Source: an uncultured Gammaproteobacteria bacterium (GTDB lineage: Bacteria; Patescibacteriota; Microgenomatia; CAZETR01; Amesbacteraceae). From it: 64,000 nucleotides of DNA. Position numbers and translations under genes: made by a program. This document shows, piece after piece, positions 4,517-23,624 of the stretch. Below the pieces are notes generated by a model. That model was given only the letters and a program-made list of their open reading frames with translations, did no database searches and had not been told where the DNA came from. Location: the NCBI GenBank assembly GCA_964518565.1, contig CAZFGX010000001.1:203046-267045 (forward strand), in the 5' to 3' direction. Positions within the stretch are counted from its first letter, which is position 1, and every line of letters starts with the position of its first letter.

Positions 4517-4562
4517 ATCTCGGGTTGTGCATAATACCCTATAGTTGTATAATTATCCCCAT

Positions 4563-6617: not shown

Positions 6618-6618
6618 T

Positions 6619-8892: not shown

Positions 8893-10787
8893 AATTAGCA
8901 ATCTTTTTGGTCTCCATCTTCGCACTCTCTGCGCTGTTCGTTTGGTTTTTTTTCTCGCCAGAGAAAAAAAACACTTCAATTGAACAACCAACTTCAAAAT
9001 CAAGTCATTCTCTATCCACAATAAAATCAAATAAATGGTTTAGTTCTATATACAAAGGTATACCAACTGCACCACTATATGCTCAGCCATTGGTGTATAA
9101 ATTTACGGATAAAGGAATACAAATTTCTTACCCAAAAATTGTTGTCGAGCCAAATACAATCTTCAGCCCTTTTACCTCTGATATTCAAATAGGTATCGGA
9201 CAAACCATTTCTTCACTAGAACCAGCTCAGATAGGGGATTGGCATATCAAAGTAAAAGCAAGTTCACAGACCGAAAATTTTTTGACAACTATTGGTCAAG
9301 GTCTTCCATATACTTATTTACATTCATCAACTAAAAATTGGCAAATTGATTTCGAAACTGGATATACCACAATAAATAAAACAAATACTTCTCAAACAGT
9401 TATGACAAATGAAAATCTATACCTCATCGTCTGGGATAAATCCGCTACTCTCGATGAGAGTGAACACCAAATAAAAATTAGTAACTCAGAAAAACTTTTT
9501 ATTGCTGTACTCGATGATAAAGAACACGAAAATTTATTTAAACAAATCAGTGAAGGGGCAATTGAATCAACTCAGGTTTCTTGGACAATAGATGCAGATA
9601 CGATAAAAGAAAATTTTCAAATTCAGCAACAAGCCAAATCACTCATTGCAATATTGCCTCATCAATATGCTGGACTCGTCCAAACATTCCCAGCTTTGGG
9701 TCAATATCGTAGCATACGTGGTCCAATGACATTAATACAAACAAATAAATTTCAAATAAAAATTTTTAGAATCACTCCTCCAGAATCATTTTCCATAATG
9801 GATTCTCCTGATTCCACTTTACTAAATAGTTTTATCCAAGACTCAAATGAATTGTTAAACAATCCTATCCCAGAAAGCAAAAATTATGGCCTGAGTGTCT
9901 GGATGGGAAAAATGGCAAATCAAATTGAACTAGCAAATGCCCTCAGGCAAGAAGCAGAAAAAAAACTTCTCATTACTCGTGCCGGAGAAGCATTAGAAGC
10001 TATCAATGAGTGGTATGAATATGATTCTAGACAACAAAGCATTGTGTCCAAGAGTCCTGAATTTGGCAACGAACGGTTAAACGACCACCACTTCCATTAT
10101 GGTTATGTCATTCGATTGGCCGCTATTTTGAAAAGGTATGGATATCAAATCCCGGAAGCAACCCAGCTTCGTATCAATGAAATTGTTCAAGATATCGCCA
10201 CCAATGACAGACAATCTGATCGCTTCCCGTTTGTAAGAAATTTTGATTTTTACGAAGGCCATTCCTGGGCAGATGGCTATGCCCAGTTTGCAGACGGACA
10301 AAACCAGGAGTCGAGTTCTGAAGCCATAAATGCCTGGTATGGATTATATTTATGGGCAAAGGTAAATTCAGATCCTGAAACCGAAAAATTAGCAATATTC
10401 TTATTTAATAGTGAAATCTACAGCACCAAGTATTACTGGTTTAATATTGGCAATATCTATCCCAAGCCGTATGAGCACGCAATTGCGTCACTAGTTTGGG
10501 GTGGAAAAGTAGATTTCACTACCTGGTTCGGTAATGACACAAATTTCAAGTATGGTATTCAGATTCTGCCTGTTACCCCTGCGTCAGGCTATCTCAAGAC
10601 TATTCCTAACTTTTTCAACTATGAAGGGGATTTTTTGCGCAGTGGTGGCAGCTATGATCGACCCTGGGGGGAACTTATGCAATTTTGGAAATCCCAATCG
10701 ACACGAGAAATTAGCCTCGATATGCTGCCAAAACAGCCAGAAACCACCCCAAGGTCAATTTTAGAATATTTTCTGCTTGCCGAGTAA
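8889..10787 (+). CDS. secreted glycoside hydrolase, GH81-like endo-beta-1,3-glucanase
   Basis: GTG start overlapping upstream TGA; signal/TM anchor; motifs 'NDHHFHYGY' and 'ESSSEAINAWYG' recalled as GH81 signatures. Confidence 0.55.
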   Translation: MKLAIFLVSIFALSALFVWFFFSPEKKNTSIEQPTSKSSHSLSTIKSNKWFSSIYKGIPTAPLYAQPLVYKFTDKGIQISYPKIVVEPNTIFSPFTSDIQIGIGQTISSLEPAQIGDWHIKVKASSQTENFLTTIGQGLPYTYLHSSTKNWQIDFETGYTTINKTNTSQTVMTNENLYLIVWDKSATLDESEHQIKISNSEKLFIAVLDDKEHENLFKQISEGAIESTQVSWTIDADTIKENFQIQQQAKSLIAILPHQYAGLVQTFPALGQYRSIRGPMTLIQTNKFQIKIFRITPPESFSIMDSPDSTLLNSFIQDSNELLNNPIPESKNYGLSVWMGKMANQIELANALRQEAEKKLLITRAGEALEAINEWYEYDSRQQSIVSKSPEFGNERLNDHHFHYGYVIRLAAILKRYGYQIPEATQLRINEIVQDIATNDRQSDRFPFVRNFDFYEGHSWADGYAQFADGQNQESSSEAINAWYGLYLWAKVNSDPETEKLAIFLFNSEIYSTKYYWFNIGNIYPKPYEHAIASLVWGGKVDFTTWFGNDTNFKYGIQILPVTPASGYLKTIPNFFNYEGDFLRSGGSYDRPWGELMQFWKSQSTREISLDMLPKQPETTPRSILEYFLLAE

Positions 10788-10805
10788 TTGACTATAGGGT
10801 ATAAT
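10776..10805 (+). promoter_or_regulatory. sigma70-like promoter TTGCCG-18-TATAAT upstream of giant PA14 gene
   Basis: Sequence 'ttgccgagtaattgactatagggtataat'; ATG at 10839. Confidence 0.3.
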
Positions 10806-10838
10806 GCCTTTACTTCCTGCTCTCCTAAACACCGTCTC

Positions 10839-13800
10839 ATGAAAAAAATCATTACATTCTTTATAGGGCTTTTTGCGCTGGTTTTAGCTGGCAGCTTATC
10901 GCCTAAAAGTATATTCGCTGCGCCTCCGCAAAACTTTCAAACCTCAGCCATAATTTCTACTGGGCTAGACGGACCTAGCGGCTTCCAATTTGCCCCGGAT
11001 GGTCGAATATTTATTCTACAAAGAACTGGAGAGGTAAAAATATATAAAAATGGCCAATTACTAGCGAATAATTTCATCACCCTTCCTTCTATCGCCTCAG
11101 GAGACCGTGGATTAATTGGTATTGCCTTTGATCCTGACTATGCTTCAAATAAATATGTATATTTTTATTACACCGCCTTAGACAAGCTTAACTATTTAGT
11201 AAGATTCTCAGCCGTGAACGATACCGCCAGTGATGGTCCGGTTATTATTTACCACACTACAAGCCCATCAGAACAATTACATGTTGGAGGAGGAATAGCT
11301 TTTGGAAATGACGGAAAACTTTATTTCACGGTCGGGGATAATGGATACCCTCCAAACGCACAAAGCTTAGATAATCCACACGGAAAGATACTTCGTATAA
11401 ACAAAGATGGTAGTATTCCCTCGGATAATCCGTTTGTAAACACTCCTGGTGCTTTACCTGAAATCTGGGCATACGGGTTAAGAAACCCTTGGCGTCTACA
11501 GTTTGATAGCACTACAGGAAAATTATATGACGGCGATGTGGGTCAAAATACCTGGGAAGAAGTGAATCTAATTGAGAAGGGGAAAAATTACGGCTGGCCG
11601 ACATGTGAAGGCAATTGTGGCACTTCCGGAATGACGAATCCAATCTATACCTACAACCATGACGGCTTGAGCTCTGCAGTCACAGGTGGTCCTGTATATC
11701 GTGGCACAATGTTCCCTTCTAGCTATGTCGGCAGATATTTTTTTGCCGATTATGCCCGAGGATTTATTCGCACCCTAGGGCTGGATGCAAATGGCAATTC
11801 AACCGACATGTCTGTATTTGATGCCAATGCCGGTACGCCGGTAGACCTGAGAGTTGCTCCAGATGGTTCGCTATATTACATCACCTATTATCCTGGTCGT
11901 TTGTATCGAATCACATATTCAACAACCAACCAGGTTCCAACTGCTTCAGCCGGTAGCAATGCCACAAAAGGATTGAGTCCTTTTACCGTAAACTTCACTT
12001 CAGCCGGATCAAGTGATCCAGAGAATAATCCCTTAAGTTTTTTTTGGGACTTCGGTGACGGTCAAACAAGTACTCAAGCCAATCCGTCTCATACATATAC
12101 AAATAATGGCTCATATCTTGCTCAGCTGACTGTGAGCGATGGTGTGAATACAGTAGATGCTATCCCCATTGTCATACAGGTTGGTATCGCCCCCACGGTG
12201 ACCATTGGTATGCCTGCAAATAACTCGCAATATAAATCTGGTGATTCAATCACATACTCGGTTTCTGCTACTGATGGCGTGGGAAACGATATGAATGACA
12301 ACGATATTGGCGTTGAAATCCTATTCCACCATTTGACCCACATTCACCCGTTTTTAGGTCCTCTGTATGGCAGAAACGGTACATTTGTAATTCCCACTAC
12401 AGGTGAACCATCCGATGCTACCTGGTTTGAGATCAAAGCTACAGCCACTGACACAAATGGACTTTCAACTACGAAATCGGTTTTTATCTACCCAAAAGTC
12501 GTTGACCTGACCTTCCAAACAAACCCCACTGGCTTACAAATTACACTCGATGGCGAACCTACCACTACGCCACAAACTATAAAGCATGTTGTTGGTTTTC
12601 AGCGTGAACTTTCAGCTAATGGTCCTCAATATGTTGGTGCAGACGTTTATCAATTTTCTGGTTGGTCCGATGGGGGAGGAGCAACACATACAATTTCCGT
12701 ACCAAATGTAAACACCACATATACAGCCAATTTTACAAAAACAGGCACAGTAGTACCATTTTCTGCGCAATATTTTTCTAACCAAAACCTTACGGGTTCC
12801 CCAACACTAACCAAAAACGACAATTTTATTAATTTTGATTGGGGAATAAATGCACCTGATTCCGCAATACCTGCAGACAACTTTTCTGTTCGCTGGACAA
12901 AAACAGACTCCTTTTCAGCTGGTAGTTATGAATTCTCAGTCACAGCCGACGACGGTCTGCGTCTATATATCGACAACAACCTAGTTATCGACAAGTGGGT
13001 AGACCAAGGAGCAACAACTTATAAAACCACTCAAGTTCTCACATCTGGTAATCACACCATCAAAATGGAGTACTATGAAAATGGTTACGATGCAGTCGCA
13101 AAATTAAACTGGATTCAATTGTCGGGCAATACCCCTACACCAACACCGACATCAATTCCTAGTGACCCAAATGCATTTTCTGGACAGTACTTCAACAATA
13201 AAAGTTTGACGGGTAATCCAGCCTTCACCAGAAATGACACAAATATAAACTTTGATTGGGCAGCGGGTAGTCCAGACCCAGTAATCACAGCAGACAACTT
13301 CTCTGTTCGCTGGACAAAAACATTGAACATTACTTCAGCTGGTGATTACAAGTTCTCAGTCACAGCCGATGATGGTGTTCGACTCAAAGTTGACGGCACA
13401 ACCATCATCGACAAATGGCAAGATCAGGCAGCCTCTATCTATACATCCACCGTAAATCTGGGACTAGGTAATCACACAGTAATCATGGAATACTATGAGA
13501 ATGGTGGAGAAGCAGTAGCAAAACTATCATGGTCTCAAATCACTCAAGTTCCAACACCCACCCCAACTCCAAATACAACAAATTCATTTACGGGTCAGTA
13601 CTGGAACATAGTTTGGAATGGAAATCCACAAATTCCTTCAACGAATCCAACTCTAACCAGACAAGACTCAAATATAAATTTTGATTGGGCATTAGTTTCT
13701 CCAGGCGCTGGTATAAACGCCGACGACTTTGTTGCTCGTTGGACCAAAACCGAGACATTTACTGCTGGTACATATCGTTTCTCAGTCACAGCCGATGATG

Positions 13801-15218
13801 GTGTACGTCTGTATGTGGACAACAACCTAGTCATCGACAAATGGCAACTCCAAGGTGCAACAACATACACTACAGATCAAATCCTTAGTGCCGGCGCTCA
13901 CACCATAAAAATGGAGTATTACGAACATCAAGAGGATGCAGTAGCCAAACTCTCTTGGACGTCTTTGACAACCGTACCTACTCCAACACCTACTCCGATA
14001 GTAAGTTCCAATTCATTCACAGGTGAATATTTTAATAATACGACCCTTTCTGGGACTCCTTCTCTTACTCGAGTCGATACAGATATTAATTTCGACTGGG
14101 CAAATGGGAATCCAGGATCCCCAATCCCAGCAGACAACTTCTCTGTTCGCTGGACAAAAACATTGAACATTACTTCAGCTGGTGATTACAAGTTCTCAGT
14201 CACAGCCGATGATGGTGTTCGACTCAAAGTTGACGGCACAACCATCATCGACAAATGGCAAGATCAGGCAGCCTCTACATATAATAGTACTAAGACTCTC
14301 GCTTCAGGCAACCATACCGTAGTTATGGAATATTACGAGAACTCTGGCTTAGCAGTTGCAAAACTCTCTTTTTCTCAAGTATCTGCAGCCCCAACTCCAA
14401 CACCGACGCCGTCCTTGAGTAATACCTTTACAGGAGAATATTGGAATGTAACTTGGACTGGTATACCAAATATTCCCAACGTGCCTGCCAATGTAGTGCG
14501 TACTGATGCAGATATCAATTTCGACTGGGCGCAATTAGCCCCAGCATCAGGTATAAACGCCGACGACTTTGTTGCTCGTTGGACCAAAACCGAGACATTT
14601 ACTGCTGGTACATATCGTTTCTCAGTCACAGCCGATGATGGTGTACGTCTGTATGTGGACAACAACCTAGTCATCGACAAATGGCAACTCCAAGGTGCTG
14701 CTACCTATACAACTGACCTAGTTTTAACTGCAGGTTCTCATGCCATAAAAATGGAGTATTTCGAACATCTTTTTGATGCAGTATCCAAATTAAGTTGGAC
14801 TAGTTTGGGAACACCGACTCCTACACCAACCCCAGCTCCCACTAATAATTTTGTTGGCCAATACTTTACAAATTCAAATCTATCGGGTGCTCCGTCTCTT
14901 GAACGTACTGACGCTCAAATCAATTTCGATTGGGGTTATGGTTCCCCGGCCGGAAGTATTCCTGTAGACAACTTTTCTGCCCGTTGGACTAAAACAGACA
15001 ACTTTGTAGGTGGCAATTATCAATTCTCTGTTTCATCAGATGATGGACTAAGAATAAAAGTTGACGGTACAAGTATCTATGATCAATGGATAGATCAGGC
15101 AGCAAATCCACAAACAATTACTGTTCCAATTAGTTCAGGTAGTCACACCATTACCGTCGAATATTACGAAAACGATTTAACTGCTAGTTGCCAAGTTTCA
15201 TGGGCTGCACTTCCGTAA
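10839..15218 (+). CDS. giant secreted protein: PQQ-type glucose/sorbosone dehydrogenase beta-propeller + PKD + Ig-like + 6x PA14 domains
   Basis: Track start 10788 is TTG; ATG 10839 gives signal peptide MKKIITFFIGLFALVLAGS; GSDH motifs 'GKILRINKDGSIPSDNPF', 'YGLRNPWR'; PKD 'WDFGDGQTS'; six ~120-aa PA14 units ('FSVRWTKT...FSVTADDGVRL..DG..IDKW...MEYYE') separated by PTPTPTP linkers. Confidence 0.8.
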   Translation: MKKIITFFIGLFALVLAGSLSPKSIFAAPPQNFQTSAIISTGLDGPSGFQFAPDGRIFILQRTGEVKIYKNGQLLANNFITLPSIASGDRGLIGIAFDPDYASNKYVYFYYTALDKLNYLVRFSAVNDTASDGPVIIYHTTSPSEQLHVGGGIAFGNDGKLYFTVGDNGYPPNAQSLDNPHGKILRINKDGSIPSDNPFVNTPGALPEIWAYGLRNPWRLQFDSTTGKLYDGDVGQNTWEEVNLIEKGKNYGWPTCEGNCGTSGMTNPIYTYNHDGLSSAVTGGPVYRGTMFPSSYVGRYFFADYARGFIRTLGLDANGNSTDMSVFDANAGTPVDLRVAPDGSLYYITYYPGRLYRITYSTTNQVPTASAGSNATKGLSPFTVNFTSAGSSDPENNPLSFFWDFGDGQTSTQANPSHTYTNNGSYLAQLTVSDGVNTVDAIPIVIQVGIAPTVTIGMPANNSQYKSGDSITYSVSATDGVGNDMNDNDIGVEILFHHLTHIHPFLGPLYGRNGTFVIPTTGEPSDATWFEIKATATDTNGLSTTKSVFIYPKVVDLTFQTNPTGLQITLDGEPTTTPQTIKHVVGFQRELSANGPQYVGADVYQFSGWSDGGGATHTISVPNVNTTYTANFTKTGTVVPFSAQYFSNQNLTGSPTLTKNDNFINFDWGINAPDSAIPADNFSVRWTKTDSFSAGSYEFSVTADDGLRLYIDNNLVIDKWVDQGATTYKTTQVLTSGNHTIKMEYYENGYDAVAKLNWIQLSGNTPTPTPTSIPSDPNAFSGQYFNNKSLTGNPAFTRNDTNINFDWAAGSPDPVITADNFSVRWTKTLNITSAGDYKFSVTADDGVRLKVDGTTIIDKWQDQAASIYTSTVNLGLGNHTVIMEYYENGGEAVAKLSWSQITQVPTPTPTPNTTNSFTGQYWNIVWNGNPQIPSTNPTLTRQDSNINFDWALVSPGAGINADDFVARWTKTETFTAGTYRFSVTADDGVRLYVDNNLVIDKWQLQGATTYTTDQILSAGAHTIKMEYYEHQEDAVAKLSWTSLTTVPTPTPTPIVSSNSFTGEYFNNTTLSGTPSLTRVDTDINFDWANGNPGSPIPADNFSVRWTKTLNITSAGDYKFSVTADDGVRLKVDGTTIIDKWQDQAASTYNSTKTLASGNHTVVMEYYENSGLAVAKLSFSQVSAAPTPTPTPSLSNTFTGEYWNVTWTGIPNIPNVPANVVRTDADINFDWAQLAPASGINADDFVARWTKTETFTAGTYRFSVTADDGVRLYVDNNLVIDKWQLQGAATYTTDLVLTAGSHAIKMEYFEHLFDAVSKLSWTSLGTPTPTPTPAPTNNFVGQYFTNSNLSGAPSLERTDAQINFDWGYGSPAGSIPVDNFSARWTKTDNFVGGNYQFSVSSDDGLRIKVDGTSIYDQWIDQAANPQTITVPISSGSHTITVEYYENDLTASCQVSWAALP
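13288..13858 (+). repeat. intragenic duplicated unit copy 1 (two PA14 domains)
   Basis: 13288-13437 is 100% identical to 14128-14277 and 13711-13858 is 100% identical to 14551-14698 (840-bp offset); flanks diverged. Confidence 0.85.
14128..14698 (+). repeat. intragenic duplicated unit copy 2 (two PA14 domains)
   Basis: See copy 1; identical cores verified by direct reading. Confidence 0.85.
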
Positions 15219-15246: not shown

Positions 15247-16521
15247 ATGACTCGTAAATATCTTATTTCTTCGTCAGCTATGATTCTCGTGGGAATGTGT
15301 ATCTTCATGTATGCGAAAACCAAATCAGCTCTGTCTGCCGAGGAGACTTTACATCCAAAATTTTGGTCGGTGCAATCTATAGATACAGTCAAATACTCTC
15401 GAGACGTTGCTCGCGAAAAACTACATGATAGTAGTTTTGACACGACAATTGACGCCCAGATAAAACAAATAGCTTCAACCGGTGCAACGCATGTTGCTAT
15501 TGGTACTCCATACGACGACGAATTTTTACCATATCTAAAACGTTGGGTATCTGCAGCTCGTACACACAATCTCCATGTGTGGTTTAGAGGAAATTGGTCC
15601 GGCTGGGAAGGATGGTTTAATTATCCAAATATCACTGCTAAACAACATGTTTCCCAAACAGTTGTTTTTATAAAAAATAATCCTGACTTATTTGTGGATG
15701 GTGACATTTTTAGCCCATGTCCCGAGTGTGAAAATGGTCAAATTGGTGACCCACGTCAAACAGGTAAAATTCAAGAATTTCGCCAGTTTCTTATAGATTT
15801 AACCAATGGATGTGAAACTGCTGCAACTGAAATTAAAAAATCAATAATTTGTAACTACCATTCCATGAATGGAGATGTAGCTAGACTAATCATGGACAAG
15901 GAAACGACGCAAAAATTAGGAGGAGTAGTTGTTGTAGATCACTATGTGAAAGAACCCACTCAAATGGCTAAAGATCTCAAGGAATTTGCACTTCAGACCG
16001 GAGGCAAAGTAGTTCTAGGAGAATTTGGCGCCCCTTTACCAGATATTCACGGTAACATGTCCCAAGAACAACAAGCAGCATGGATATCTGAGACATTAAA
16101 CCAAGTAATTGAAATTCCCGAAGTGGTTGGGGTGAATTATTGGACGAATGTTGGTGGATCTACTGGTCTATGGGACTCTCATAACCAGCCAAGAGTAGGA
16201 GTGTCCTCCTTGTCACAAATTTATCAACCTAATGAAATAATTATCCACGTAAAAAATATAATTGATAAACCCATAGTCAGTAGTGCACTGTATTTAGATA
16301 AAACATTTGCTAGTGACAAAACAGGCAGTATTCGTTTACCAAAACAATTAAATAAATCAGTTATCCCTGCGATTATTATTGCTGCAGATGGGTATAAAGA
16401 TCAGGGAGTATATTTAGGAGCCACAGAGGCAGAAACAACAATTGTCTTAGAAAAACAATCTGAAAGTATATGGTTCAAACTCCAAGTATTGCTTTTTAAG
16501 CTATCCCATAGTATAATATAA
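15247..16521 (+). CDS. membrane-anchored clan GH-A (GH5-like) glycoside hydrolase
   Basis: N-terminal TM; TIM-barrel-like strands; 'HYVKEP' (NEP-like acid/base) and 'VVLGEFGAP' (nucleophile Glu) motifs. Confidence 0.45.
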   Translation: MTRKYLISSSAMILVGMCIFMYAKTKSALSAEETLHPKFWSVQSIDTVKYSRDVAREKLHDSSFDTTIDAQIKQIASTGATHVAIGTPYDDEFLPYLKRWVSAARTHNLHVWFRGNWSGWEGWFNYPNITAKQHVSQTVVFIKNNPDLFVDGDIFSPCPECENGQIGDPRQTGKIQEFRQFLIDLTNGCETAATEIKKSIICNYHSMNGDVARLIMDKETTQKLGGVVVVDHYVKEPTQMAKDLKEFALQTGGKVVLGEFGAPLPDIHGNMSQEQQAAWISETLNQVIEIPEVVGVNYWTNVGGSTGLWDSHNQPRVGVSSLSQIYQPNEIIIHVKNIIDKPIVSSALYLDKTFASDKTGSIRLPKQLNKSVIPAIIIAADGYKDQGVYLGATEAETTIVLEKQSESIWFKLQVLLFKLSHSII

Positions 16522-16526
16522 ATACT

Positions 16527-17408
16527 GTGAAGATATCAACAAAAGTTTCGTCCGCGATTCTTATCATGGTTTCCTTAGGACTACAGGCTAGTCCTGTATT
16601 AGCATCGTATACTCCAAATTTTCCTGCGTGTCCTAATCCGGGTGGTAATCTGACCGCTCAATATAATTCAGGTTTACACGGTATTCCAGGTGACTCACAA
16701 GAATATGTTGGATCTGATTCAGTATTTCAAATTAATTCAACCCAGTGGGTTCAATGTTTTTGTCCACAAAACGGTGCAGGAATTCAAACAAACTGGTTAC
16801 TACTCCAAGATCCTTCCGAGTCTGAAATATCAGCATACAAAAACCAAGGCTGGGTATTTATTCCAGATGGATCTGCCTGGGGACTTCAAGCTGCTAGTTA
16901 TGTAGCTCAAAATAGCTCGATTTCATGTGTTGGTGGCACAGGAAATGGTAACGATAGTTCAGCAAATACCAACTCTTCTAATACATCAGTTTGTGATTCG
17001 ATCAAACCAGGCACTCCAGTATTAACTTCAATAAAACGAATAGGATCAACAGCAACCCTTTCTTGGAATCCTGTTCAAAACGCTACTCATTACTCAATTT
17101 CTTATGGAGTCGAATCAGGTAAATATTTATACGGTGTTCCGAATACAGGCAATGTGACTCAATTCACCATTGGTAGCCTAGATCCAAATAAAACTTATTA
17201 CTGGGAAGTACGAGCCGTCAACAATTGTATGCCATCAGACGCTTCCTCCCAGCCTTCAGCTGCTCGAGGTGGTGGGGATATCCTGGGTAGTTCTACAGGG
17301 TTTGCACCTACTGGAGATTGGTCAATACTTATTCTAGCTGCAGGTATTGGGTGTATATTGACTGGTCTATCAGTGGCTATGAGAAATGGCCATGAATCAA
17401 AAAAATAA
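16527..17408 (+). CDS. secreted fibronectin-type-III surface protein with C-terminal sorting-signal-like tail
   Basis: GTG start, signal peptide; FN3 'LSWNPVQNATHYSISYG...YYWEVRAVN'; C-terminus 'GFAPTGDWSILILAAGIGCILTGLSVAMRNGHESKK' (motif+TM+basic tail). Confidence 0.55.
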   Translation: MKISTKVSSAILIMVSLGLQASPVLASYTPNFPACPNPGGNLTAQYNSGLHGIPGDSQEYVGSDSVFQINSTQWVQCFCPQNGAGIQTNWLLLQDPSESEISAYKNQGWVFIPDGSAWGLQAASYVAQNSSISCVGGTGNGNDSSANTNSSNTSVCDSIKPGTPVLTSIKRIGSTATLSWNPVQNATHYSISYGVESGKYLYGVPNTGNVTQFTIGSLDPNKTYYWEVRAVNNCMPSDASSQPSAARGGGDILGSSTGFAPTGDWSILILAAGIGCILTGLSVAMRNGHESKK

Positions 17409-17895
17409 TCTCTCCAGACTTTTATTCTTTCTTGGGCTCCTTTGCTTTGTTTTTGTTGGAGTGTTGATAGTAGATCGGTTAAAAAATAATACGGTATCCT
17501 TTGACCAGCTTCCTGTCACTTCTGAGACAAATACACAACCAGACGGTATCGAAATATCTACCCAACAAATCCGACTTGCCGTTGTCTCAAAAAAAGTTGA
17601 AAAAAGCTTTCCCACATCAAAAACAACCGCTATACATATTCAAGGTACAAACATATATTACGCTCACAACTGGCCAAACTTATTTGGAAATCTTAAAAAG
17701 ATTAAAATCAACGATCCAATAGTAATCCATTTCTCCAACGGTCAAATAAAAAAATATCTGGTCACTCAAACTGAATCTGTGTGGCCATCGGACACGAGTA
17801 TTTTAAATCAGAACAATTCAGAAACGATTGTCGTCTATACATGTACGGGAGTTTTTGACATCAAAAGGTTGGTCATAGTGGCTAAATCTGTTTGA
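17386..17895 (+). CDS. sortase family transpeptidase
   Basis: N-terminal TM, conserved His region 'IHIQGTNIYYAHNWPN', catalytic 'VVYTCTG' (TLxTC) motif; overlaps 3' end of FN3 gene. Confidence 0.7.
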   Translation: MAMNQKNNLSRLLFFLGLLCFVFVGVLIVDRLKNNTVSFDQLPVTSETNTQPDGIEISTQQIRLAVVSKKVEKSFPTSKTTAIHIQGTNIYYAHNWPNLFGNLKKIKINDPIVIHFSNGQIKKYLVTQTESVWPSDTSILNQNNSETIVVYTCTGVFDIKRLVIVAKSV

Positions 17896-17917: not shown

Positions 17918-18421
17918 ATGCCATTTTTAGTTATAATTGCAGTAGTAATTTTAGGCGCAGGCATCGTGGCCAATATTGCCTCACCGAACAGTTCAGGGCC
18001 AGACGACCCTATCACCACGAGCGTGACTTCAACCCCTATTCCAACTTCATCTCCTACACCAATACCCACAATTCAACAATCCCTACCAACCCCAACAATA
18101 AAACCTGTTAATACTATCAATCCTACAAATATCGTTAACCCTACCCAAATTACCCAACCAGCTAACTGGCAATACCCTAATAGTCAAAAACGGTCTGAAA
18201 ACGAATTTGTCAGTTCAGAGTCTCCTGAAAAAATTACTCAGTGGTATAAAGACAAAATTATCGCCACTGGGTACTCAAGTAAGTCGTTTGTCCAAACATC
18301 TACAAACGCAAAAATTTTAAATAAGTTAGTTGGCGCAAAACAAAACAATGAAATTTCAGTTGAAATTTACAAAAATCCCGAGGATGCAAATACAACAATA
18401 AAAATTGCGCTTGACAACTAA
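17918..18421 (+). CDS. secreted hypothetical protein with Pro/Thr-rich linker
   Basis: N-terminal hydrophobic segment, 'TPIPTSSPTPIPT' linker. Confidence 0.4.
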   Translation: MPFLVIIAVVILGAGIVANIASPNSSGPDDPITTSVTSTPIPTSSPTPIPTIQQSLPTPTIKPVNTINPTNIVNPTQITQPANWQYPNSQKRSENEFVSSESPEKITQWYKDKIIATGYSSKSFVQTSTNAKILNKLVGAKQNNEISVEIYKNPEDANTTIKIALDN

Positions 18422-18452
18422 AAATTGCATGAGTAATATCCGAAGGTGTTTA

Positions 18453-18486
18453 AGCTGCCCAAATAAAATAAGGGCAGTTTTTTATT
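18453..18486 (+). terminator. rho-independent terminator
   Basis: Stem ctgccc/gggcag, 11-nt loop, followed by TTTTTTATT. Confidence 0.5.
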
Positions 18487-18503
18487 CTGTTTAACTAAAT
18501 AAA

Positions 18504-19079
18504 ATGAAAAAAATTACCTCAAAAAAATATTTACCAGCGCTTATTGTAATAGCATTTGCATTGATAGCTGTTGTTGGAGGGGTTAGGTTGTTATCAAAAA
18601 TAAAACAAAATAGATCAAACAGCCAAACTTCCGGGGAAAAAATATCAGTTCAAGACGCAAAAGCAACAGCCTCGGTAAATCGAGAGTTCTCATTTCCTAT
18701 AAAAGATAGTTCGAATAAAAAAATTACAGACCTAAAATTTATAATTGAATCAGCAGAGTTAAGAGATGAAATAATTGTTAAGGGTAGTCGAGCTACAGCT
18801 GTAAAAGGTCGGACGTTTCTAATTTTAAATTTAAAAATTACGAATAATTTCAACAAGGCTCTTCAAATTAATACCCAAGATTATTTTAGACTGACAGTAA
18901 ACAATTCAAATGACGACTTACTTGCTCCCGACATCCACAATGATCCGTTAATTATTCAGCCAACATCGACAAAATTTACTCGAGTTGGCTTTGCAATAAA
19001 TGATTCAGACAAAAATATTGTCCTACAAGTAGGTGAGATCGATGGAGAAAAAACAAAGATCGAACTAAACCTACAATGA
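18504..19079 (+). CDS. membrane-anchored DUF4352-like protein
   Basis: N-terminal TM; 'ATAVKGRTFLILNLKITNN...FRLTVNNSND' resembles DUF4352 beta-sandwich. Confidence 0.4.
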   Translation: MKKITSKKYLPALIVIAFALIAVVGGVRLLSKIKQNRSNSQTSGEKISVQDAKATASVNREFSFPIKDSSNKKITDLKFIIESAELRDEIIVKGSRATAVKGRTFLILNLKITNNFNKALQINTQDYFRLTVNNSNDDLLAPDIHNDPLIIQPTSTKFTRVGFAINDSDKNIVLQVGEIDGEKTKIELNLQ

Positions 19080-19502: not shown

Positions 19503-20747
19503 ATGACAACTTTCAAAAAGAAAATTGCTGCTGCATTAACTTCTGGTGCAATGTTTTTGAGTATGACAAGTACAGCCTTTGCTTCTACCTCAATTGAAGT
19601 AACAGGAAATGGATATGATTCGTCAAATTCATCAAATGTAAGTGCTCAAACCTCAACAAATGTAGTCCAAGATAATTCAGCTTCAGTCTCAAACCGTGTC
19701 AGTTCTTCTAGTAATACTGGAGGAAACAAAGCCGATCAAAACACAAACGGCGATGTAATCATCCGCACAGGCGACGCTCAAACAAAAGTGAATGTCGACA
19801 ATATGCTAAACAGTAACAAAGCTATGCTTGATTGCTGCAGCACTGCAGGTGACACTGACGTAACTGTTTCTGGTAACGGTGCCAAGTCAAATAGTGATGT
19901 CTCTCTTTCAAAGGATGCAAACACTTCAGTGTTTCAAACCAATGTAGCAGATGTCAAAAATGATATTGACGCTATTGCCAAAACAGGTGAAAACCAAGCC
20001 AACCAGAATACTGGTGGAACCGTTAACGGTGGTGTTGCTATCCGTACAGGAGATGCAAGAACCAACGTTGATGTGGCTACTGCTGCCAACGTAAATGTGG
20101 CACAAGTAGGTGGTAACGGTCATGTCGCAGGTGACACTACTGCCAAAATCATTGGCAATGGTTACAACTCCGACAATAGTATCGACTTGAGTGAAAATAA
20201 CTCTACAAACGTTGTTCAAGACAACTATGCAGATGTATATAACTCAATCGAAGCCGATGCTAAAACTGGTTACAACAAAGCCAACCAAAACACTGGTGGT
20301 GATACACTCATTTACACTGGCGACGCCAAAGTAAATGTAGCCGTCGATAATATGGTTAACTTCAATTGGGCAAACGTTGATTGCGGATGCCAAATGAGTG
20401 ACCTCGCAGTAAAAGTCGCAGGAAATGGTGCCGATTCATGGAATGATGTTGCTGTCAGTCACGATAGCGCAAAAGACGCATTCCAAACCAACGATGCCAA
20501 CCTAGACAACTGGGTCGATGGAAATGCCAAAACTGGTGACAATTCAGTCAAACAAAGTACTGGTAGTGTCAATGGAGATCCAGCTATCTGGACCGGAGAT
20601 TCAGCTTCATCATTTGATGTAGCAAATTCTGGTAACTCCAACAGTTACGGTAGTGATATGCCTGCATCTTGGCCAAACATGTCAAACATGGATTTCCACT
20701 TTAGCTTTTCGCTAGGTGATCTCATGGCCTGGGCTGGTCATAACTAA
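19503..20747 (+). CDS. secreted Asn/Gly/Thr-rich repeat protein (paralog 1, 4 repeats)
   Basis: Signal peptide; four ~95-aa repeats with GNG..S.N, Q.N.A.V.N, TG.N.A.QNTGG, I.TGDA...V.V.N and CC/CGC pairs. Confidence 0.65.
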   Translation: MTTFKKKIAAALTSGAMFLSMTSTAFASTSIEVTGNGYDSSNSSNVSAQTSTNVVQDNSASVSNRVSSSSNTGGNKADQNTNGDVIIRTGDAQTKVNVDNMLNSNKAMLDCCSTAGDTDVTVSGNGAKSNSDVSLSKDANTSVFQTNVADVKNDIDAIAKTGENQANQNTGGTVNGGVAIRTGDARTNVDVATAANVNVAQVGGNGHVAGDTTAKIIGNGYNSDNSIDLSENNSTNVVQDNYADVYNSIEADAKTGYNKANQNTGGDTLIYTGDAKVNVAVDNMVNFNWANVDCGCQMSDLAVKVAGNGADSWNDVAVSHDSAKDAFQTNDANLDNWVDGNAKTGDNSVKQSTGSVNGDPAIWTGDSASSFDVANSGNSNSYGSDMPASWPNMSNMDFHFSFSLGDLMAWAGHN

Positions 20748-20759
20748 AATTTTTGTGTA

Positions 20760-20785
20760 GTGTCCCGCCAGATATGGCGGGACAC
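20760..20785 (+). other. perfect palindromic hairpin (11-bp stem, 4-nt loop)
   Basis: gtgtcccgcca-gata-tggcgggacac between paralog 1 stop and paralog 2 ATG (20810). Confidence 0.5.
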
Positions 20786-20809
20786 CCACAGAAATTAAAT
20801 ATATTTAAA

Positions 20810-22912
20810 ATGAAAAAAATTATTAGCTTACTCACCATTTTTATAGTTTTCTCTTCGCTGATTACTCCAGTATCGGCTCTAGAGACTCCTATCGCACCCA
20901 CTGCCCCAGATGCACCTATTGCCCCAACAAGTGAACCAGCACCCACTGCCCCTTCTGCTCCAGCAGCGCCAACCTCACCCTCACAACAACAAACAGAACC
21001 TACTCCACGTCCAACAAGATCACCCAGAACTGAAAATTCTTCAAGTACTGATTCATCTACAATGTCAAATCCAACACCAACGAGCGCTCCTGTTTTGACT
21101 CCGGCAACAACCCCTGCAAAAAATAATATAGTAACTGGAAACGATACAAATTCTGCAATATCTACTACAACTGGAAATTCAAACGCGACAGGAAGTTCGC
21201 AAAGCAGTTCTGCAGGTTCAAACTCAATAATAAATACCGAAAATGGTGCTTATTCAGAAAACCATGGGGTAATAAATCAAAATTCTGATTCACAGACTAT
21301 ACAAAATAACGATGCGAATGTTCAAAATGATTTAAATCAATCAAGTAATACAGGTAATAATTCAACCTCATTTTCCGTTGGTGATACAGCAATAAAAACC
21401 GGAGACTCAAATGTATCAGGTACCGTAATTAATAGCGTAAATACAAATATTGATGGAGTATCGGTAGCAGAGTTTAATATTGCTGACACGCAAAAAGGTG
21501 ATTATATTTTAGATTTCGCCAAAAACTGTATCAGTGGCTGTTCTAATGGTGCAAATTTGGCTCAAAACAGTGGAAACGGTGCATATTCACAAAACACCGC
21601 CAATATCGATAACAATCAAAATAACGCGACTTTTCAGTCAAATGACGCTACTGTCGGAAATAAATTAGTACTATCTGCTGATTCAGGTAACAATAACGCA
21701 AATTACAATACTGGAGGTAGTTCTCAAATCCAAACTGGAGATGCAAATGTTTCAGCGAATGCACTAACGTTTGCAAACAATAATTTAAATGGAAATGTGT
21801 TGTATGGAGTCGTAAACATTTATGGTGATTTATATGGCGATATCCTTTTTCCAGAAGAAATTATCTCAAATGCAAATAATGGCGCAAATTCAAATAATCA
21901 AAGTTCAATCGCAACAAATAATACAAACCAAACCTTCCAAAGTAATAATGCAGATCTAGATAATACGGTACTAATAAATGCCAACACCGGCGACAATAGC
22001 ACCACAGGCAATACAGGTGGCGATTCCGGAGTTCTTACTGGAAACGCAAATGTAACAACACAAACACTAAATGTGGCAAACAATAATATTGATAGTGGTA
22101 CTACCTGGTTAGTGTTAGTCAACCAAGCTGGAAATTGGCTAGGACAAATAGTCGGGGCGGCCGGATCAAATTACGCAGGTTCTATAGGCACTCAATTTTC
22201 AGTGTCGCCATCAGGTGCAATTACTGCCTCAAACACTGGAAATGGTTCAGGTTCAGATAATCAAACAAACATTAATCAAACAAATACCAATGTCACCAGT
22301 CAATCAAACAATGTAAATGTGCAAAATGTACTAGATCTATCAGCAAATACTGGAAATAATAGTGCCAATTACAATACGGGCGGGGATTCTGCAATAAAAA
22401 CAGGTGACGCAAATATCGTTGCAAACTTAGTAAACTTTGTAAATAACAACGTTTCTTCAAGTGGTAAGTTAGTTGTAACAGTCGTAAACGTTTTTGGTTC
22501 ATGGGTAGGAGACCTGGTAACCCCTGGACAAAAGCAACAAAAATATACATCAGCAGCTCCAGCTCCTGTTGGCGGCGCAGCCATTCAAACGAACAATATA
22601 GTACCAGTATCTACATCTGCCGCCACCCCTACGCCAACTGTTGCAACCAGCATACTTGTCCAATCCAGCTCCAAATCGGATTCTACTCAAAACGTTACAA
22701 AAAATATTTCAAACACAAATAGGAGTAAAGTGTTGAGTCTGAATACGTCAAAAACAAATGACTCAAGTATTGATGAACCCGCAGTCTCATCTATTCAGCT
22801 TGCTCAGCCACAAAAAAAGATCGTCAAAATAAATTTGGCCTGGCTAATATTAAGCTTGCCATTAATTGGAGTAGGTATTTTAGTGAAAAAACTTCGTGTT
22901 CGAAAAAGCTAA
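20810..22912 (+). CDS. secreted Asn-rich repeat protein (paralog 2) with Pro/Ala linker and C-terminal TM anchor
   Basis: Track start 20753 is TTG; ATG 20810 gives signal peptide; 'APTAPDAPIAPTSEPAPTAPSAP' linker; repeats 'TGNNSANYNTGGDSAIKTGDANIVANLVNFVNNN'; C-term 'LAWLILSLPLIGVGILVKKLRVRKS'. Confidence 0.65.
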   Translation: MKKIISLLTIFIVFSSLITPVSALETPIAPTAPDAPIAPTSEPAPTAPSAPAAPTSPSQQQTEPTPRPTRSPRTENSSSTDSSTMSNPTPTSAPVLTPATTPAKNNIVTGNDTNSAISTTTGNSNATGSSQSSSAGSNSIINTENGAYSENHGVINQNSDSQTIQNNDANVQNDLNQSSNTGNNSTSFSVGDTAIKTGDSNVSGTVINSVNTNIDGVSVAEFNIADTQKGDYILDFAKNCISGCSNGANLAQNSGNGAYSQNTANIDNNQNNATFQSNDATVGNKLVLSADSGNNNANYNTGGSSQIQTGDANVSANALTFANNNLNGNVLYGVVNIYGDLYGDILFPEEIISNANNGANSNNQSSIATNNTNQTFQSNNADLDNTVLINANTGDNSTTGNTGGDSGVLTGNANVTTQTLNVANNNIDSGTTWLVLVNQAGNWLGQIVGAAGSNYAGSIGTQFSVSPSGAITASNTGNGSGSDNQTNINQTNTNVTSQSNNVNVQNVLDLSANTGNNSANYNTGGDSAIKTGDANIVANLVNFVNNNVSSSGKLVVTVVNVFGSWVGDLVTPGQKQQKYTSAAPAPVGGAAIQTNNIVPVSTSAATPTPTVATSILVQSSSKSDSTQNVTKNISNTNRSKVLSLNTSKTNDSSIDEPAVSSIQLAQPQKKIVKINLAWLILSLPLIGVGILVKKLRVRKS

Positions 22913-22951
22913 AAAAACACGTCCTAAATAATTAGGACGTGTTCTTTTTTT
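22910..22951. terminator. bidirectional intrinsic terminator between convergent paralogs
   Basis: A7-acacgtcctaa-ataa-ttaggacgtgt-TCTTTTTTT. Confidence 0.65.
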
Positions 22952-22959
22952 AAGAGCAA

Positions 22960-23553
22960 TTATAGCGAGTTACTTGCTCCTGCAACCACAACTTCCACTT
23001 GTGACGTTGTTGAACCAGTACTGATCTCAACCCCATTTCCTGTATTTAGCTTTGATTTATTTTTACCAGTAGAAGCTTTTGATGTAATCGCGTTCGACAC
23101 TTTAGTTTTTGACTTTTGTTCAGTAATCAAGGCTTTAGCTGAAGAAACCTCGACTTTATTTTTGGATTTTGCTCCATTTCCATCCACTAAAATATCTACA
23201 ACCGTCTCACTGCAACCACAACAAGAAGGCGCAGTAGCGGTATTTTCGCCGCCAATCACACTGACAGATACACTTGATGTTGCATCACCTGTATCGATCG
23301 AATTTAGACCACCAGTATTCATATTTGCAGTATTACTGCCTGTCGATGACGAAGATGAAATAGAATTAGTCACCACAGTACTGCTCATTTGAGTAACTGA
23401 TGAAACACAATCCATTGACATGGCAATTTTATTGTGTGACATAGCTCCATTTCCAGTTATTTCAACTGAAGCAAACGCGGCACTGGTAGCGGAAACAAGC
23501 AGCATTCCCGCACCAGCTGTTACAACTGCAAATCTTTTAATCAGAAAAGTCAT
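22960..23553 (-). CDS. secreted Asn/Gly/Ser-rich repeat protein (paralog 3)
   Basis: AGGAGG 7 nt upstream of ATG (MTFLIKRF...); signal peptide; 'ITGNGAMSHN', 'NTGGLNSIDTGDATSSVSV', 'SCCGCSET', 'VDGNGAKSKN' motifs shared with paralogs 1 and 2. Confidence 0.6.
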   Translation of the reverse strand: MTFLIKRFAVVTAGAGMLLVSATSAAFASVEITGNGAMSHNKIAMSMDCVSSVTQMSSTVVTNSISSSSSTGSNTANMNTGGLNSIDTGDATSSVSVSVIGGENTATAPSCCGCSETVVDILVDGNGAKSKNKVEVSSAKALITEQKSKTKVSNAITSKASTGKNKSKLNTGNGVEISTGSTTSQVEVVVAGASNSL

Positions 23554-23624
23554 ATATATCACCTCCTTTCGTCTCTTATTTTAATTTAAATAATCAAAGC
23601 ATAATCTGTCAACCAACAAATCAC

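What the first reader, a model, noticed from the sequence alone, without database searches (positions are those of the whole stretch)
16527..17895. Sortase gene overlapping the 3' end of an FN3 surface protein whose tail reads APTGD-TM-basic: candidate non-canonical sorting motif
The sortase (TLxTC-type 'VVYTCTG') begins inside the last codons of the upstream FN3 protein. That protein ends with 'GFAPTGDWSILILAAGIGCILTGLSVAMRNGHESKK', the classic tripartite cell-wall sorting architecture, but with (F/L)APTG in place of LPXTG. This is a self-contained enzyme-substrate pair and suggests a lineage-specific recognition motif.
Basis: partly seen in the sequence, partly recalled or inferred. Interest (0 to 1): 0.6.

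Follow-up and report, generated by a model that had tools for sequence, protein, structure and literature searches.

The report
Dedicated mini-sortase and LAxTG-type substrate cassette
A small cell-surface protein and the enzyme that most likely clips it and fixes it to the cell wall sit in overlapping genes, a pairing conserved across the uncultured Microgenomates bacteria; its sorting tag ([L/F]-A-x-T-G) resembles one already known from Actinobacteria, but the enzyme belongs to no named sortase class.

Summary
ORF 16527-17408 has a signal peptide, a Cys-containing N-domain, an FN3 domain and the tail FAPTG-TM-RNGHESKK. It overlaps by 17-23 nt a 169-aa sortase (17386-17895) with His94/Cys153/Arg161.

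- **Motif.** The motif is not "APTG". In 194 non-redundant homologue tails it is [L 79%/F 16%]-A(96%)-x-T-G-[N/D/T/S]. Pro is just the variable x. FAPTG is a 6% variant that recurs on several sortase branches. This is the LAxTG pattern known for class E sortases of Actinobacteria.
- **Enzyme.** The enzyme is not class E. It scores far below every NCBIfam class cut-off, and class E is the weakest match. It belongs to a large clade of about 175-195-aa sortases from Microgenomates (CPR).
- **Pairing.** Substrate-first, 31 of 36 genomes have a sortase directly downstream. Sortase-first, at least 70 of 72 metagenome loci have an [L/F]AxTG protein directly upstream. All 94 non-redundant pairs have Ala at P3.
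- **Co-switching.** In three loci the tail reads LPxTG or LPAAG, and there the neighbouring sortase is of a different type.

Best reading: a dedicated, translationally coupled sortase-substrate module, usually preceded by a conserved 424-aa protein, that anchors one surface protein to the wall. It is a new variant of a known kind, of moderate interest.

The parts
15247..16521 (+). Conserved upstream partner gene (424 aa). It has an N-terminal TM/signal anchor, a domain of about 300 aa with many invariant acidic and aromatic residues (DTxKYSRD, WFRGNxSGWEGWF, CPECENG), and a C-terminal beta-sandwich in relatives. Function unknown, possibly glycoside-hydrolase-like.
   Evidence: A homologue lies directly upstream of the substrate gene in at least 25 of 36 genome loci. 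Invariant columns are listed. No Pfam or PDB sequence match for the window protein. CarboxypepD_reg matches in 9 of 19 homologues; Glyco_hydro_cc matches only faintly (E 0.008, 2 of 19).
16527..16604 (+). Sec signal peptide of the substrate (MKISTKVSSAILIMVSLGLQASPVLA|SY), using the GTG start.
   Evidence: Sequence. N-termini of homologues align to it. The AF2 model has a helix at residues 3-18. The cleavage site is inferred by eye, not by a predictor.
16605..16928 (+). Conserved N-terminal domain of the substrate (aa 27-134). It is beta-rich, with four invariant Cys (C35, C77, C79, C134) and invariant H51, D64, Q76, Q87, W90, W109, Y125 and N129. It belongs to no described family.
   Evidence: Alignments A1 and A7. 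AF2 pLDDT above 90. No Pfam or NCBIfam hit. No PDB sequence hit.
17016..17252 (+). FN3 domain (aa about 164-242). It is an optional spacer, absent from most family members.
   Evidence: Pfam PF00041, E 1.9e-7. Foldseek FN3 matches with TMt about 0.7. Short forms without FN3 appear.
17301..17315 (+). Sorting motif F259-A260-P261-T262-G263. The predicted scissile bond is T262|G263.
   Evidence: T and G are invariant and A is at least 90% conserved. Among 194 non-redundant tails: P4 is L 154 / F 32; P3 is A 186; P2 is variable; FAPTG occurs 12 times. The cleavage position is inferred from the sortase mechanism, not tested.
17319..17405 (+). Hydrophobic TM segment (W265-M285) followed by a positively charged tail (RNGHESKK). 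These are the second and third parts of the cell-wall sorting signal.
   Evidence: Sequence. The AF2 model has a helix at residues 265-291. In homologues, 20-38 residues follow the TG, mostly 26-31.
17386..17408 (+). Overlap between the substrate stop region and the sortase start (ATG 17386 or 17392). It implies translational coupling.
   Evidence: Related loci show 4-nt ATGA overlaps or gaps of under 60 nt.
17386..17895 (+). Mini-sortase (169 aa). It has an N-terminal TM helix (aa about 5-33), a short disordered linker and a catalytic barrel of about 120 aa with His94, Cys153 and Arg161. Only 7 residues lie between Cys and Arg.
   Evidence: Pfam PF04203, 48.1 bits. Clade alignments. AF2 model. 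Foldseek and PDB profile hits to sortases. Below all NCBIfam class cut-offs.
17918..19079 (+). Two downstream genes: a 167-aa TM plus Pro/Thr-rich protein, and a 191-aa TM plus DUF4352-like protein. They accompany the cassette in only some relatives, so membership of the module is uncertain.
   Evidence: Homologues lie next to the cassette in L005/L006, L009, L017 and L037 only. DUF4352 matches at E 8e-4, below the cut-off.

Best explanation
This is a dedicated sortase-substrate module of a Microgenomates (CPR) bacterium.

Proposed mechanism:
1. The 293-aa protein is exported by Sec.
2. It is held transiently in the membrane by its C-terminal TM segment and basic tail.
3. Its [L/F]-A-x-T-G signal (here FAPTG) is recognised by the membrane-anchored mini-sortase encoded by the overlapping downstream gene.
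4. Cys153, assisted by His94 and Arg161, cleaves between Thr262 and Gly263 and forms a thioacyl intermediate.
5. An amine nucleophile resolves the intermediate. This is most likely the peptidoglycan precursor, which would leave the N-domain and FN3 covalently displayed on the cell wall.

The gene overlap couples synthesis of enzyme and substrate.

What is shown:
- the sequence features;
- the sortase fold and catalytic triad;
- strong conservation of the motif;
- near-obligatory gene pairing, tested from both directions;
- Ala at P3 in all pairs;
- co-switching of motif and sortase type.

What is inferred:
- the actual cleavage and its position;
- the nature of the acceptor;
- the display function.
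For: - **Enzyme.** Sortase family, fold and triad are established.
- **Motif conservation.** It holds in an otherwise variable linker: T/G invariant and A at least 90%. Among 194 non-redundant tails, P3 is Ala in 186 and P4 is L in 154 and F in 32.
- **Substrate-first search of one genome per species.** 36 loci from Ames-, Woese-, Levy-, Roizman- and Daviesbacteria were found, and 31 have a sortase ORF directly downstream.
- **Sortase-first search of metagenomes.** Of 72 evaluable loci, 65 have the substrate family directly upstream. Five more have truncated or unmatched upstream ORFs that still end in [L/F/Y]AxTG-TM-basic.
- **Pairs.** 94 of 94 non-redundant mini-sortase/substrate pairs have xAxTG.
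- **Co-variation.** Substrate homologues with LPKTG, LPAAG or LPSTG tails (L034, L041, L042) are instead followed by a different sortase type (FSHS...LMTCxPPGT...R). Its best NCBIfam match is class C at 63-78 bits for L034 and L042; L041 was not scored.
- **Modular duplication.** L019 has a second, unrelated 390-aa protein with a MAGTG tail followed by its own paralogous sortase. L026 also carries a second sortase ORF at the equivalent position.
- **Gene spacing.** Overlaps or very short gaps between the two genes are typical.
Against: - No biochemical evidence exists. Cleavage, the scissile bond and the acceptor are all inferred by analogy.
- Only 64 kb of the genome is visible. I cannot say whether this is the only sortase or the only [L/F]AxTG protein in the organism.
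- A sub-family with FADTGR tails (L027, L033) has no adjacent sortase.
- One homologue has FPPTG (P0023), so Ala may not be strictly required.
- The wall chemistry of Microgenomates has not been characterised here.
Confidence: 0.78

Rival explanations
1. It is simply a class E (LAXTG-type, actinobacterial housekeeping) sortase with one of its substrates. On this reading it is already known biology, perhaps acquired horizontally.
For: The motif consensus LAxTG is the class E signal (PMC5148588). Clade members give weak hits to the class E model.
Against: - The window enzyme gives no class E hit at E<0.01.
- Typical clade members score 16.5-26.6 bits on NF033747 against a cut-off of 160. This is the weakest of all the class models; class F gives 36-42, class D 31-37 and class C about 36.
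- Only 58 residues separate His94 and Cys153. This leaves no room for the 21-aa beta6/beta7 insertion described for SrtE1.
- Class E enzymes are housekeeping and serve many unlinked substrates. This enzyme is paired one-to-one with a substrate.
Confidence: 0.07
2. It is a pilus-type (class C-like) system. The sortase would polymerise the Ig/FN3-like protein into a covalent fibre rather than only anchoring it.
For: The best Foldseek and PDB hits include class C sortases (6bwe, 6ixz, 3o0p). A sortase gene adjacent to an Ig-like/FN3 substrate is the classical pilus-island layout.
Against: - The class C model scores 31 bits against a cut-off of 160.
- There is no room for a lid: the TM helix is followed by a low-confidence stretch (residues 36-47, pLDDT below 50) and then strand 1. 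There is also no C-terminal TM.
- The substrate family has no invariant Lys. The best-conserved K column, at 81%, is Leu in the window protein, so there is no pilin-motif nucleophile.
- Usually only one substrate gene is present.
Confidence: 0.07
3. The C-terminal segment is only a membrane anchor. The neighbouring sortase would act on other proteins or be inactive, and the resemblance to a sorting signal would be incidental.
For: The window contains no other candidate substrate. Some relatives (FADTGR tails) lack an adjacent sortase. Another protein in the cluster (20753-22912) has a TM plus basic tail with no motif.
Against: - The A-x-T-G residues are conserved at a fixed distance, mostly 26-31 residues, from the C-terminus across about 200 divergent homologues.
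- 94 of 94 pairs carry the motif.
- Motif and sortase type switch together.
- The catalytic triad is intact.
Confidence: 0.04
4. The sortase processes the protein but transfers it to an acceptor other than peptidoglycan. Candidates are a surface glycan or lipid made by the surrounding glycosyltransferase island, the 424-aa partner protein, or water (release).
For: The cassette lies in a large glycan-synthesis and glycan-processing island: a cellulose-synthase-like GT2, GH81, a PA14 lectin-like protein, many PMT_2 enzymes and a flippase. A conserved uncharacterised 424-aa partner always sits upstream.
Against: All characterised sortases use peptide amines as acceptors (wall cross-bridge or pilin Lys); this rests on established knowledge. 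Nothing here points to another nucleophile.
Confidence: 0.1

Closest known systems
Class E sortases of Actinobacteria (e.g. Streptomyces coelicolor SrtE1/SrtE2 with chaplins; LAXTG signal)
   Same: The sorting-signal pattern is the same: Ala replaces Pro at P3 (L-A-x-T-G), followed by a TM segment and a basic tail. The enzyme has the same His/Cys/Arg sortase chemistry and is membrane-anchored through an N-terminal TM.
   Different: - The enzyme fails the class E model (16-27 bits against 160; no hit for the window protein).
- It is about 170-195 aa in total.
- It lacks the long beta6/beta7 insertion and the cytoplasmic N-terminal extension.
- By alignment to SaSrtA, it has Leu/Ile at the position of A104, which PMC5148588 equates with SrtE1 Tyr229.
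- It is genetically dedicated to one substrate rather than housekeeping.
- It occurs in CPR/Microgenomates.
Dedicated sortase-substrate operons (class B SrtB-IsdC, NPQTN; class D SrtD/SrtC-BasH/BasI, LPNTA)
   Same: One specialised sortase is encoded next to its one or two substrates, which carry a variant motif.
   Different: The motif differs, and sequence similarity is low (class D model 27-37 bits against 165; class B essentially no hit). Here the genes actually overlap, and the pairing is conserved across a whole superphylum-level lineage.
Class C pilus sortases with adjacent pilin genes
   Same: They are the best structural matches (Foldseek E about 2e-9, TM about 0.6). The layout is also similar: a sortase next to a beta-sandwich substrate gene.
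   Different: There is no lid, no C-terminal TM, no conserved pilin Lys in the substrate, a single substrate gene, and Ala rather than Pro at P3.
Sortase family 'fam000526' reported as near-ubiquitous in Microgenomates (Meheust et al. 2019, PMC6744442)
   Same: It is probably the same enzymes. That paper notes that sortases are near-universal in Microgenomates.
   Different: In the passages read here, that work and other CPR genome papers (PMC3812714, PMC7143001, PMC4736985) report only presence, or search for LPXTG. None names the substrate family, the Ala-containing motif or the conserved cassette. Identity with fam000526 was not tested.

Membership tests
Sortase superfamily (Pfam PF04203, peptidase C60) | Match to the family profile above the curated threshold | tested here: met
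   48.1 bits against a gathering score of 26.6, E 1.2e-12.
Sortase superfamily (Pfam PF04203, peptidase C60) | Catalytic His, Cys (TLxTC-like) and Arg in the right order, on an eight-stranded beta-barrel | tested here: met
   H94, C153 and R161 are invariant in 29- and 67-sequence alignments. AF2 model pLDDT 83.5; Foldseek probability 1.00 to many solved sortases.
Sortase superfamily (Pfam PF04203, peptidase C60) | Transpeptidase activity on a sorting signal | not testable with these tools
   Requires a peptide cleavage/ligation assay.
Tripartite cell-wall sorting signal | Pentapeptide motif ending in T-G, then a hydrophobic span of about 20 aa, then a basic tail at the extreme C-terminus of a Sec-exported protein | tested here: met
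   FAPTG, then W265-M285, then RNGHESKK; an N-terminal signal peptide is present. The arrangement is conserved in 194 of 208 non-redundant homologue tails. The curated LPXTG-anchor model does not detect it: no NCBIfam hit.
Class E sortase (NCBIfam NF033747) | Score at or above the curated class cut-off (160 bits) | tested here: not met
   No hit at E<0.01 for the window protein. Typical clade members score 26.6 and 16.5 bits.
Class E sortase (NCBIfam NF033747) | Substrates carry LAXTG (Ala at P3) | tested here: met
   Ala at P3 in 186 of 194 tails and in 94 of 94 enzyme-substrate pairs. This is genomic inference, not enzymology.
Class E sortase (NCBIfam NF033747) | Conserved Tyr in the beta3/beta4 loop (S3 subsite) and a long beta6/beta7 insertion (Kattke 2016) | tested here: inconclusive
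   Profile alignment to SaSrtA puts Leu (Ile85 in the window protein) at the A104 position, which PMC5148588 equates with SrtE1 Tyr229. A Tyr/His lies one residue earlier. The His-Cys spacing of 58 residues argues against a 21-aa insertion. No direct structural superposition on SrtE1 was possible.
Class C (pilus) sortase (NF033745) | Class cut-off of 160 bits; lid over the active site; pilin substrate with a conserved Lys | tested here: not met
   31.3 bits. No lid segment in the model. No invariant Lys in the substrate family.
Class D, class F and class GN sortases (NF033746, NF033748, TIGR03784) | Curated class cut-offs (165, 166 and 158 bits) | tested here: not met
   Window protein: class D 27.2 bits, GN 20.1 bits, class F no hit. 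Clade members: class F 36-42, class D 31-37, GN 29-31 bits.
Class A and class B sortases | Match to a class model; housekeeping LPXTG (A) or NPQTN with an N-terminal helix (B) | tested here: not met
   No class A model is among the hits. Class B matches 2 of 67 members at E 0.006. The motif has Ala, not Pro. PDB class A chains match only at the superfamily level (E 1e-12 to 1e-7 with the clade profile).

The most novel reading that the evidence does not exclude
The Microgenomates mini-sortases are a separate, unnamed sortase class. They are about 175-195 aa, have only 7 residues between the catalytic Cys and Arg, and carry no lid or insertions. On this reading they evolved Ala-at-P3 ([L/F]AxTG) specificity independently of class E. 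They have co-evolved one-to-one with a single ancient wall-anchored protein whose uncharacterised Cys-containing N-domain is a core surface component, possibly for adhesion or glycan binding, of this episymbiotic lineage.
Probability: 0.4. Interest if true: 0.6.

Novelty: new variant of a known kind. Interest (0 to 1): 0.45.

Why it matters
Sortases were known to be near-universal in Microgenomates. In the CPR papers read here, substrates were sought, where at all, with LPXTG patterns, which would miss this family. The analysis here identifies the likely cognate substrate, its real motif ([L/F]AxTG) and a conserved three-gene cassette.

For CPR biology, this yields a concrete, widely conserved, covalently displayed surface protein to study in organisms whose surface interactions are central to their lifestyle.

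For sortase enzymology and protein engineering, it offers a very small natural sortase clade predicted to prefer Ala at P3. Such an enzyme could be orthogonal to SrtA. It would also be an independent test of how P3 specificity is built.

It is nonetheless an extension of a well-understood mechanism, not a new one.

Tried and rejected
1. **Exhaustive profile search with the whole substrate alignment.** Giant multi-FN3 proteins swamped the result. The counts (947 at E<=1e-30) are therefore not a family size and were not used.
3. **The 424-aa partner.** It has no Pfam, NCBIfam or PDB sequence assignment. Scanning 19 homologues gave only a C-terminal CarboxypepD_reg domain and faint Glyco_hydro_cc/GH10 hits. 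I treat 'glycoside-hydrolase-like' as a lead only.
4. **The first genome scan with the 42-sequence alignment failed.** It had no conserved 7-mer. It was repeated with 12 sequences.
5. **Does FAxTG define its own sortase sub-clade?** No. F-type motifs are scattered over the sortase NJ tree. F/L is therefore a tolerated alternation rather than a separate specificity. The tree is a quick distance tree without support values.
6. **Promoter and terminator scan of 8-24 kb.** There was no enrichment over shuffles. The only strong terminator lies at 22911-22948.
7. **Rfam and tRNA scans of the window were empty**, so they gave no taxonomic marker.
9. **Literature searches.** They found no description of the substrate or motif in CPR. 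The library covers only open-access papers and preprints, so absence is not proof.
Full report
**Observation**

The two ORFs exist exactly as described.

The upstream ORF (16527-17408, +, 293 aa, GTG start) encodes:
- a Sec-type signal peptide;
- a conserved Cys-containing domain (aa 27-134);
- a low-complexity linker;
- an FN3 domain (Pfam E 1.9e-7, above the cut-off);
- the tail G-F259-A-P-T-G263-D, then a 21-residue hydrophobic span, then RNGHESKK.

The downstream ORF (17386-17895, +, 169 aa) starts 17 or 23 nt before the upstream stop codon. It matches Pfam Sortase at 48.1 bits against a cut-off of 26.6. His94, Cys153 (in VVYTCTG) and Arg161 are invariant in alignments of 29 and 67 relatives. 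An AF2 model (pLDDT 83.5) shows an N-terminal TM helix plus a sortase barrel. That model hits solved sortases at Foldseek E about 1e-9. The tail is the only sorting-signal-like C-terminus in the 64-kb window, and no second sortase is present in the window.

**What the motif really is**

The substrate has over 200 homologues at the 90% cluster level. All of those that carry a source name come from CPR/Microgenomates: Amesbacteria, Gottesmanbacteria and 'Patescibacteria group'.

In a 42-sequence alignment the linker before the tail is hypervariable. Even so, T262 and G263 are invariant and A260 is at least 90% conserved.

I pooled the 120 listed homologues with the genome and metagenome loci, giving 208 non-redundant tails. 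Of these, 194 have x-x-x-T-G placed 20-38 residues (mostly 26-31) from the C-terminus:

| Position | Residues observed (n = 194) |
|---|---|
| P4 | L 154, F 32, M 3 |
| P3 | A 186, P 3 |
| P2 | variable: S 57, T 41, A 33, G 15, P 14, N 13, D 8 and others |
| residue after the G | N, D, T or S in 91% |

The commonest forms are LASTG (54), LATTG (39), LAATG (28) and FAPTG (12).

The signal is therefore [L/F]-A-x-T-G-[N/D]. The Pro in the window protein occupies the free position, and the Phe is a minority alternative to Leu. On a quick NJ tree of 94 non-redundant partner sortases, the F-type motifs are scattered among L-type ones. F/L thus looks like a tolerated alternation rather than a separate specificity.

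**Enzyme-substrate pairing**

I tested adjacency from both directions to avoid ascertainment bias.

*Substrate-first.* A scan of one genome per species found 36 loci in Ames-, Woese-, Levy-, Roizman- and Daviesbacteria and other Microgenomates.
- 31 loci have a sortase ORF directly downstream, either overlapping or within about 150 nt.
- For one of the five exceptions (L016) the contig ends just after the substrate gene.
- L017 and L018 have aberrant tails.
- L027 and L033 have a distinct FADTGR tail. L033 has no sortase within 6 kb. The L027 contig ends 339 nt after the substrate gene.

*Sortase-first.* A metagenome scan with the sortase-clade profile returned 80 loci.
- 8 loci begin too close to the sortase to judge.
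- Of the other 72, 65 have the substrate family directly upstream.
- 5 more have truncated or unmatched ORFs that still end in [L/F/Y]AxTG-TM-basic.

All 94 non-redundant mini-sortase/substrate pairs have Ala at P3.

Two further observations argue for specificity rather than mere linkage.
- Three substrate homologues have tails reading LPKTG, LPAAG or LPSTG (L034, L041, L042). They are followed by a clearly different sortase type (FSHS...LMTCxPPGT...R). For L034 and L042 its best NCBIfam match is class C at 63-78 bits.
- In L019 a second, unrelated 390-aa protein with a MAGTG tail is followed by its own paralogous sortase. L026 also has a second sortase ORF at the equivalent position. The module therefore duplicates as a unit.

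A 424-aa protein (window 15247-16521) lies directly upstream in at least 25 of 36 loci. The conserved unit is thus three genes.

**Classification of the enzyme**

The window sortase scores far below every NCBIfam class cut-off: class C 31.3 against 160, class D 27.2 against 165, GN 20.1 against 158. It gives no hit to classes A, B, E or F at E<0.01.

All 67 aligned clade members behave alike, with weak hits to C, D, E, F and GN and none near a cut-off. Typical members score best on class F (36-42 bits) and worst on class E (16.5-26.6 bits). They even fall below the generic TIGR01076 cut-off.

A clade profile against PDB sequences matches best, all at the superfamily level only:
- 2kw8, at 1e-12; its identity as B. 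anthracis SrtA is from memory;
- 4d70, C. perfringens SrtD, at 1e-11;
- 5hu4, Listeria SrtA;
- class C chains, at about 1e-10.

A word-indexed profile search found 543 relatives at E<=1e-5. The 120 listed are 165-206 aa long and, where named at all, are called only 'sortase', 'sortase A' or 'LPXTG-site transpeptidase'.

The clade has these features:
- the His motif YGHNWxxLLG;
- the Cys motif (L/I)YTC(T/S)GFxDxKR, with only 7 residues between Cys and Arg;
- no lid and no C-terminal TM.

**Comparison with class E**

Class E sortases of Actinobacteria recognise LAXTG. Kattke et al. attribute this to a conserved beta3/beta4-loop Tyr and describe a 21-aa beta6/beta7 insertion (PMC5148588).

In the clade studied here, His and Cys are 58 residues apart, which leaves no room for that insertion. 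The alignment places Leu (Ile85 in the window protein) at the A104 position, which the paper equates with SrtE1 Tyr229. A Tyr/His lies one residue earlier.

I regard the similarity to class E as functional (same motif type). It is not membership.

**Rival explanations considered**

- *Pilus polymerisation* is unlikely. There is no lid and no invariant Lys in the substrate: the best K column, at 81%, is Leu in the window protein. Usually there is only a single substrate gene.
- *A plain TM anchor* is contradicted by the motif conservation and the co-switching.
- *Transfer to a non-peptidoglycan acceptor* cannot be excluded. The cassette lies in a glycan-centred island containing a cellulose-synthase-like GT2, GH81, a GSDH-PKD-6xPA14 protein, many PMT_2 paralogues, further GT2 enzymes and a flippase.

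**Function of the displayed protein**

This is unknown. The N-domain is confidently folded and beta-rich. It has four invariant Cys and several invariant aromatic and polar residues. It has no Pfam, NCBIfam or PDB relative. FN3 is present only in the longer forms, and most family members are 180-230 aa. Given the neighbours, a glycan-binding or adhesive role is plausible, but this is speculation.

**Literature**

Meheust et al. 2019 reported a sortase family as near-ubiquitous in Microgenomates (PMC6744442). Other CPR genome papers mention a sortase, or searched for LPXTG only (PMC3812714, PMC7143001, PMC4736985). I found no description of the substrate family, the Ala-containing motif or the cassette in CPR. 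The library covers only open-access papers and preprints.

**Verdict**

The 'self-contained pair' interpretation is strongly supported by comparative genomics. The claim of a novel APTG motif should be restated as an LAxTG-type signal with an F/L alternative, read by an unclassified, minimal, Microgenomates-specific sortase clade. This is a new variant of a known kind. Interest is moderate (0.45). Biochemical confirmation is the missing step.

Noticed in passing
window 16527-16565: The GTG start at 16527 gives a complete signal peptide that aligns with the N-termini of homologues. The public gene call for the identical protein (P0005, 280 aa) starts 13 codons later and would lack the n-region and part of the h-region. 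That call is probably truncated.
   Followed up: partly
window 19503-20747 (+), 20753-22912 (+), 22960-23562 (-): Three paralogous secreted Asn/Thr/Gly-rich proteins carry repeated 'NQNTGG...I.TGDA...V.V.N' modules and have no Pfam or NCBIfam match. They co-occur with the cassette in several related loci (L005, L008, L009, L013, L035, L037). The 719-aa one ends in a TM plus basic tail without a sorting motif.
   Followed up: no
window 15247-16521: A conserved 424-aa protein lies upstream of the substrate in most loci. It has many invariant residues (DTxKYSRD, WFRGNxSGWEGWF, CPECENG) but no family assignment. Homologues show only a C-terminal CarboxypepD_reg domain and faint glycosyl-hydrolase-core hits.
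   Followed up: partly
window 8889-15218: A GH81 C-domain protein (E 5e-49) is followed by a 1476-aa GSDH beta-propeller + PKD + six PA14 domains with near-identical repeats. A public Logan contig (L005) breaks inside this gene, presumably because of repeat collapse.
   Followed up: no
window about 24800-64000 (also 1333-8097): A long, mostly same-strand island contains a dozen or more ORFs of 480-550 aa; the three scanned match PMT_2 (GT39-like membrane glycosyltransferases). It also holds GT2 enzymes, a cellulose-synthase-like GT2 and a Polysacc_synt_3 flippase. This is an unusually large share of a genome of about 1 Mb devoted to surface glycosylation.
   Followed up: partly
L016:3-4685: A protein of at least 1560 aa with an LPATG-TM-KKKN tail lies next to an LASTG-tailed member of the substrate family. 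Pro-type and Ala-type sorting signals therefore co-exist in one Microgenomates genome.
   Followed up: no
L027:2475-3179, L033:5974-6630; P0103, P0113, P0124: A sub-family of the substrate has the tail (I)LGFADTGR plus a TM rich in aromatic and Arg residues. No sortase lies downstream (none within 6 kb in L033). It may use a distant sortase or have lost processing.
   Followed up: no
P0085, P0089, P0094, P0095, P0097: Homologues of 346-366 aa lack the TM tail altogether and end in a conserved '...RY.SGAFAYS....' segment. This may be a different C-terminal targeting signal.
   Followed up: no
L019:7147-8845 (L026 has a second sortase ORF at 8285-8863): A second module sits beside the first: a 390-aa Thr/Pro-rich protein with a MAGTG tail, followed by an overlapping paralogous sortase (IYTCWGLFDSTR).
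   Followed up: partly
P0023 versus L057/L058: Nearly identical tails differ only by FPPTG versus FAPTG. This natural Ala/Pro polymorphism at P3 suggests the enzyme may tolerate Pro, as reported for SrtE1.
   Followed up: no
Genome contigs record titles for L008, L011, L016, L019, L024-L031, L033, L036, L038, L040, L042: Contigs with clearly Microgenomates-type gene content are titled 'uncultured Gammaproteobacteria' or 'uncultured Pseudomonadales' in the public records. They are probably mislabelled MAGs.
   Followed up: no
window 22911-22948: A strong bidirectional intrinsic-terminator-like hairpin (17 pairs on the minus strand, 12 on the plus) lies between the convergent genes 20753-22912 (+) and 22960-23562 (-). 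It is the only convincing terminator in 8-24 kb, consistent with a long co-directional transcription unit that includes the cassette.
   Followed up: no
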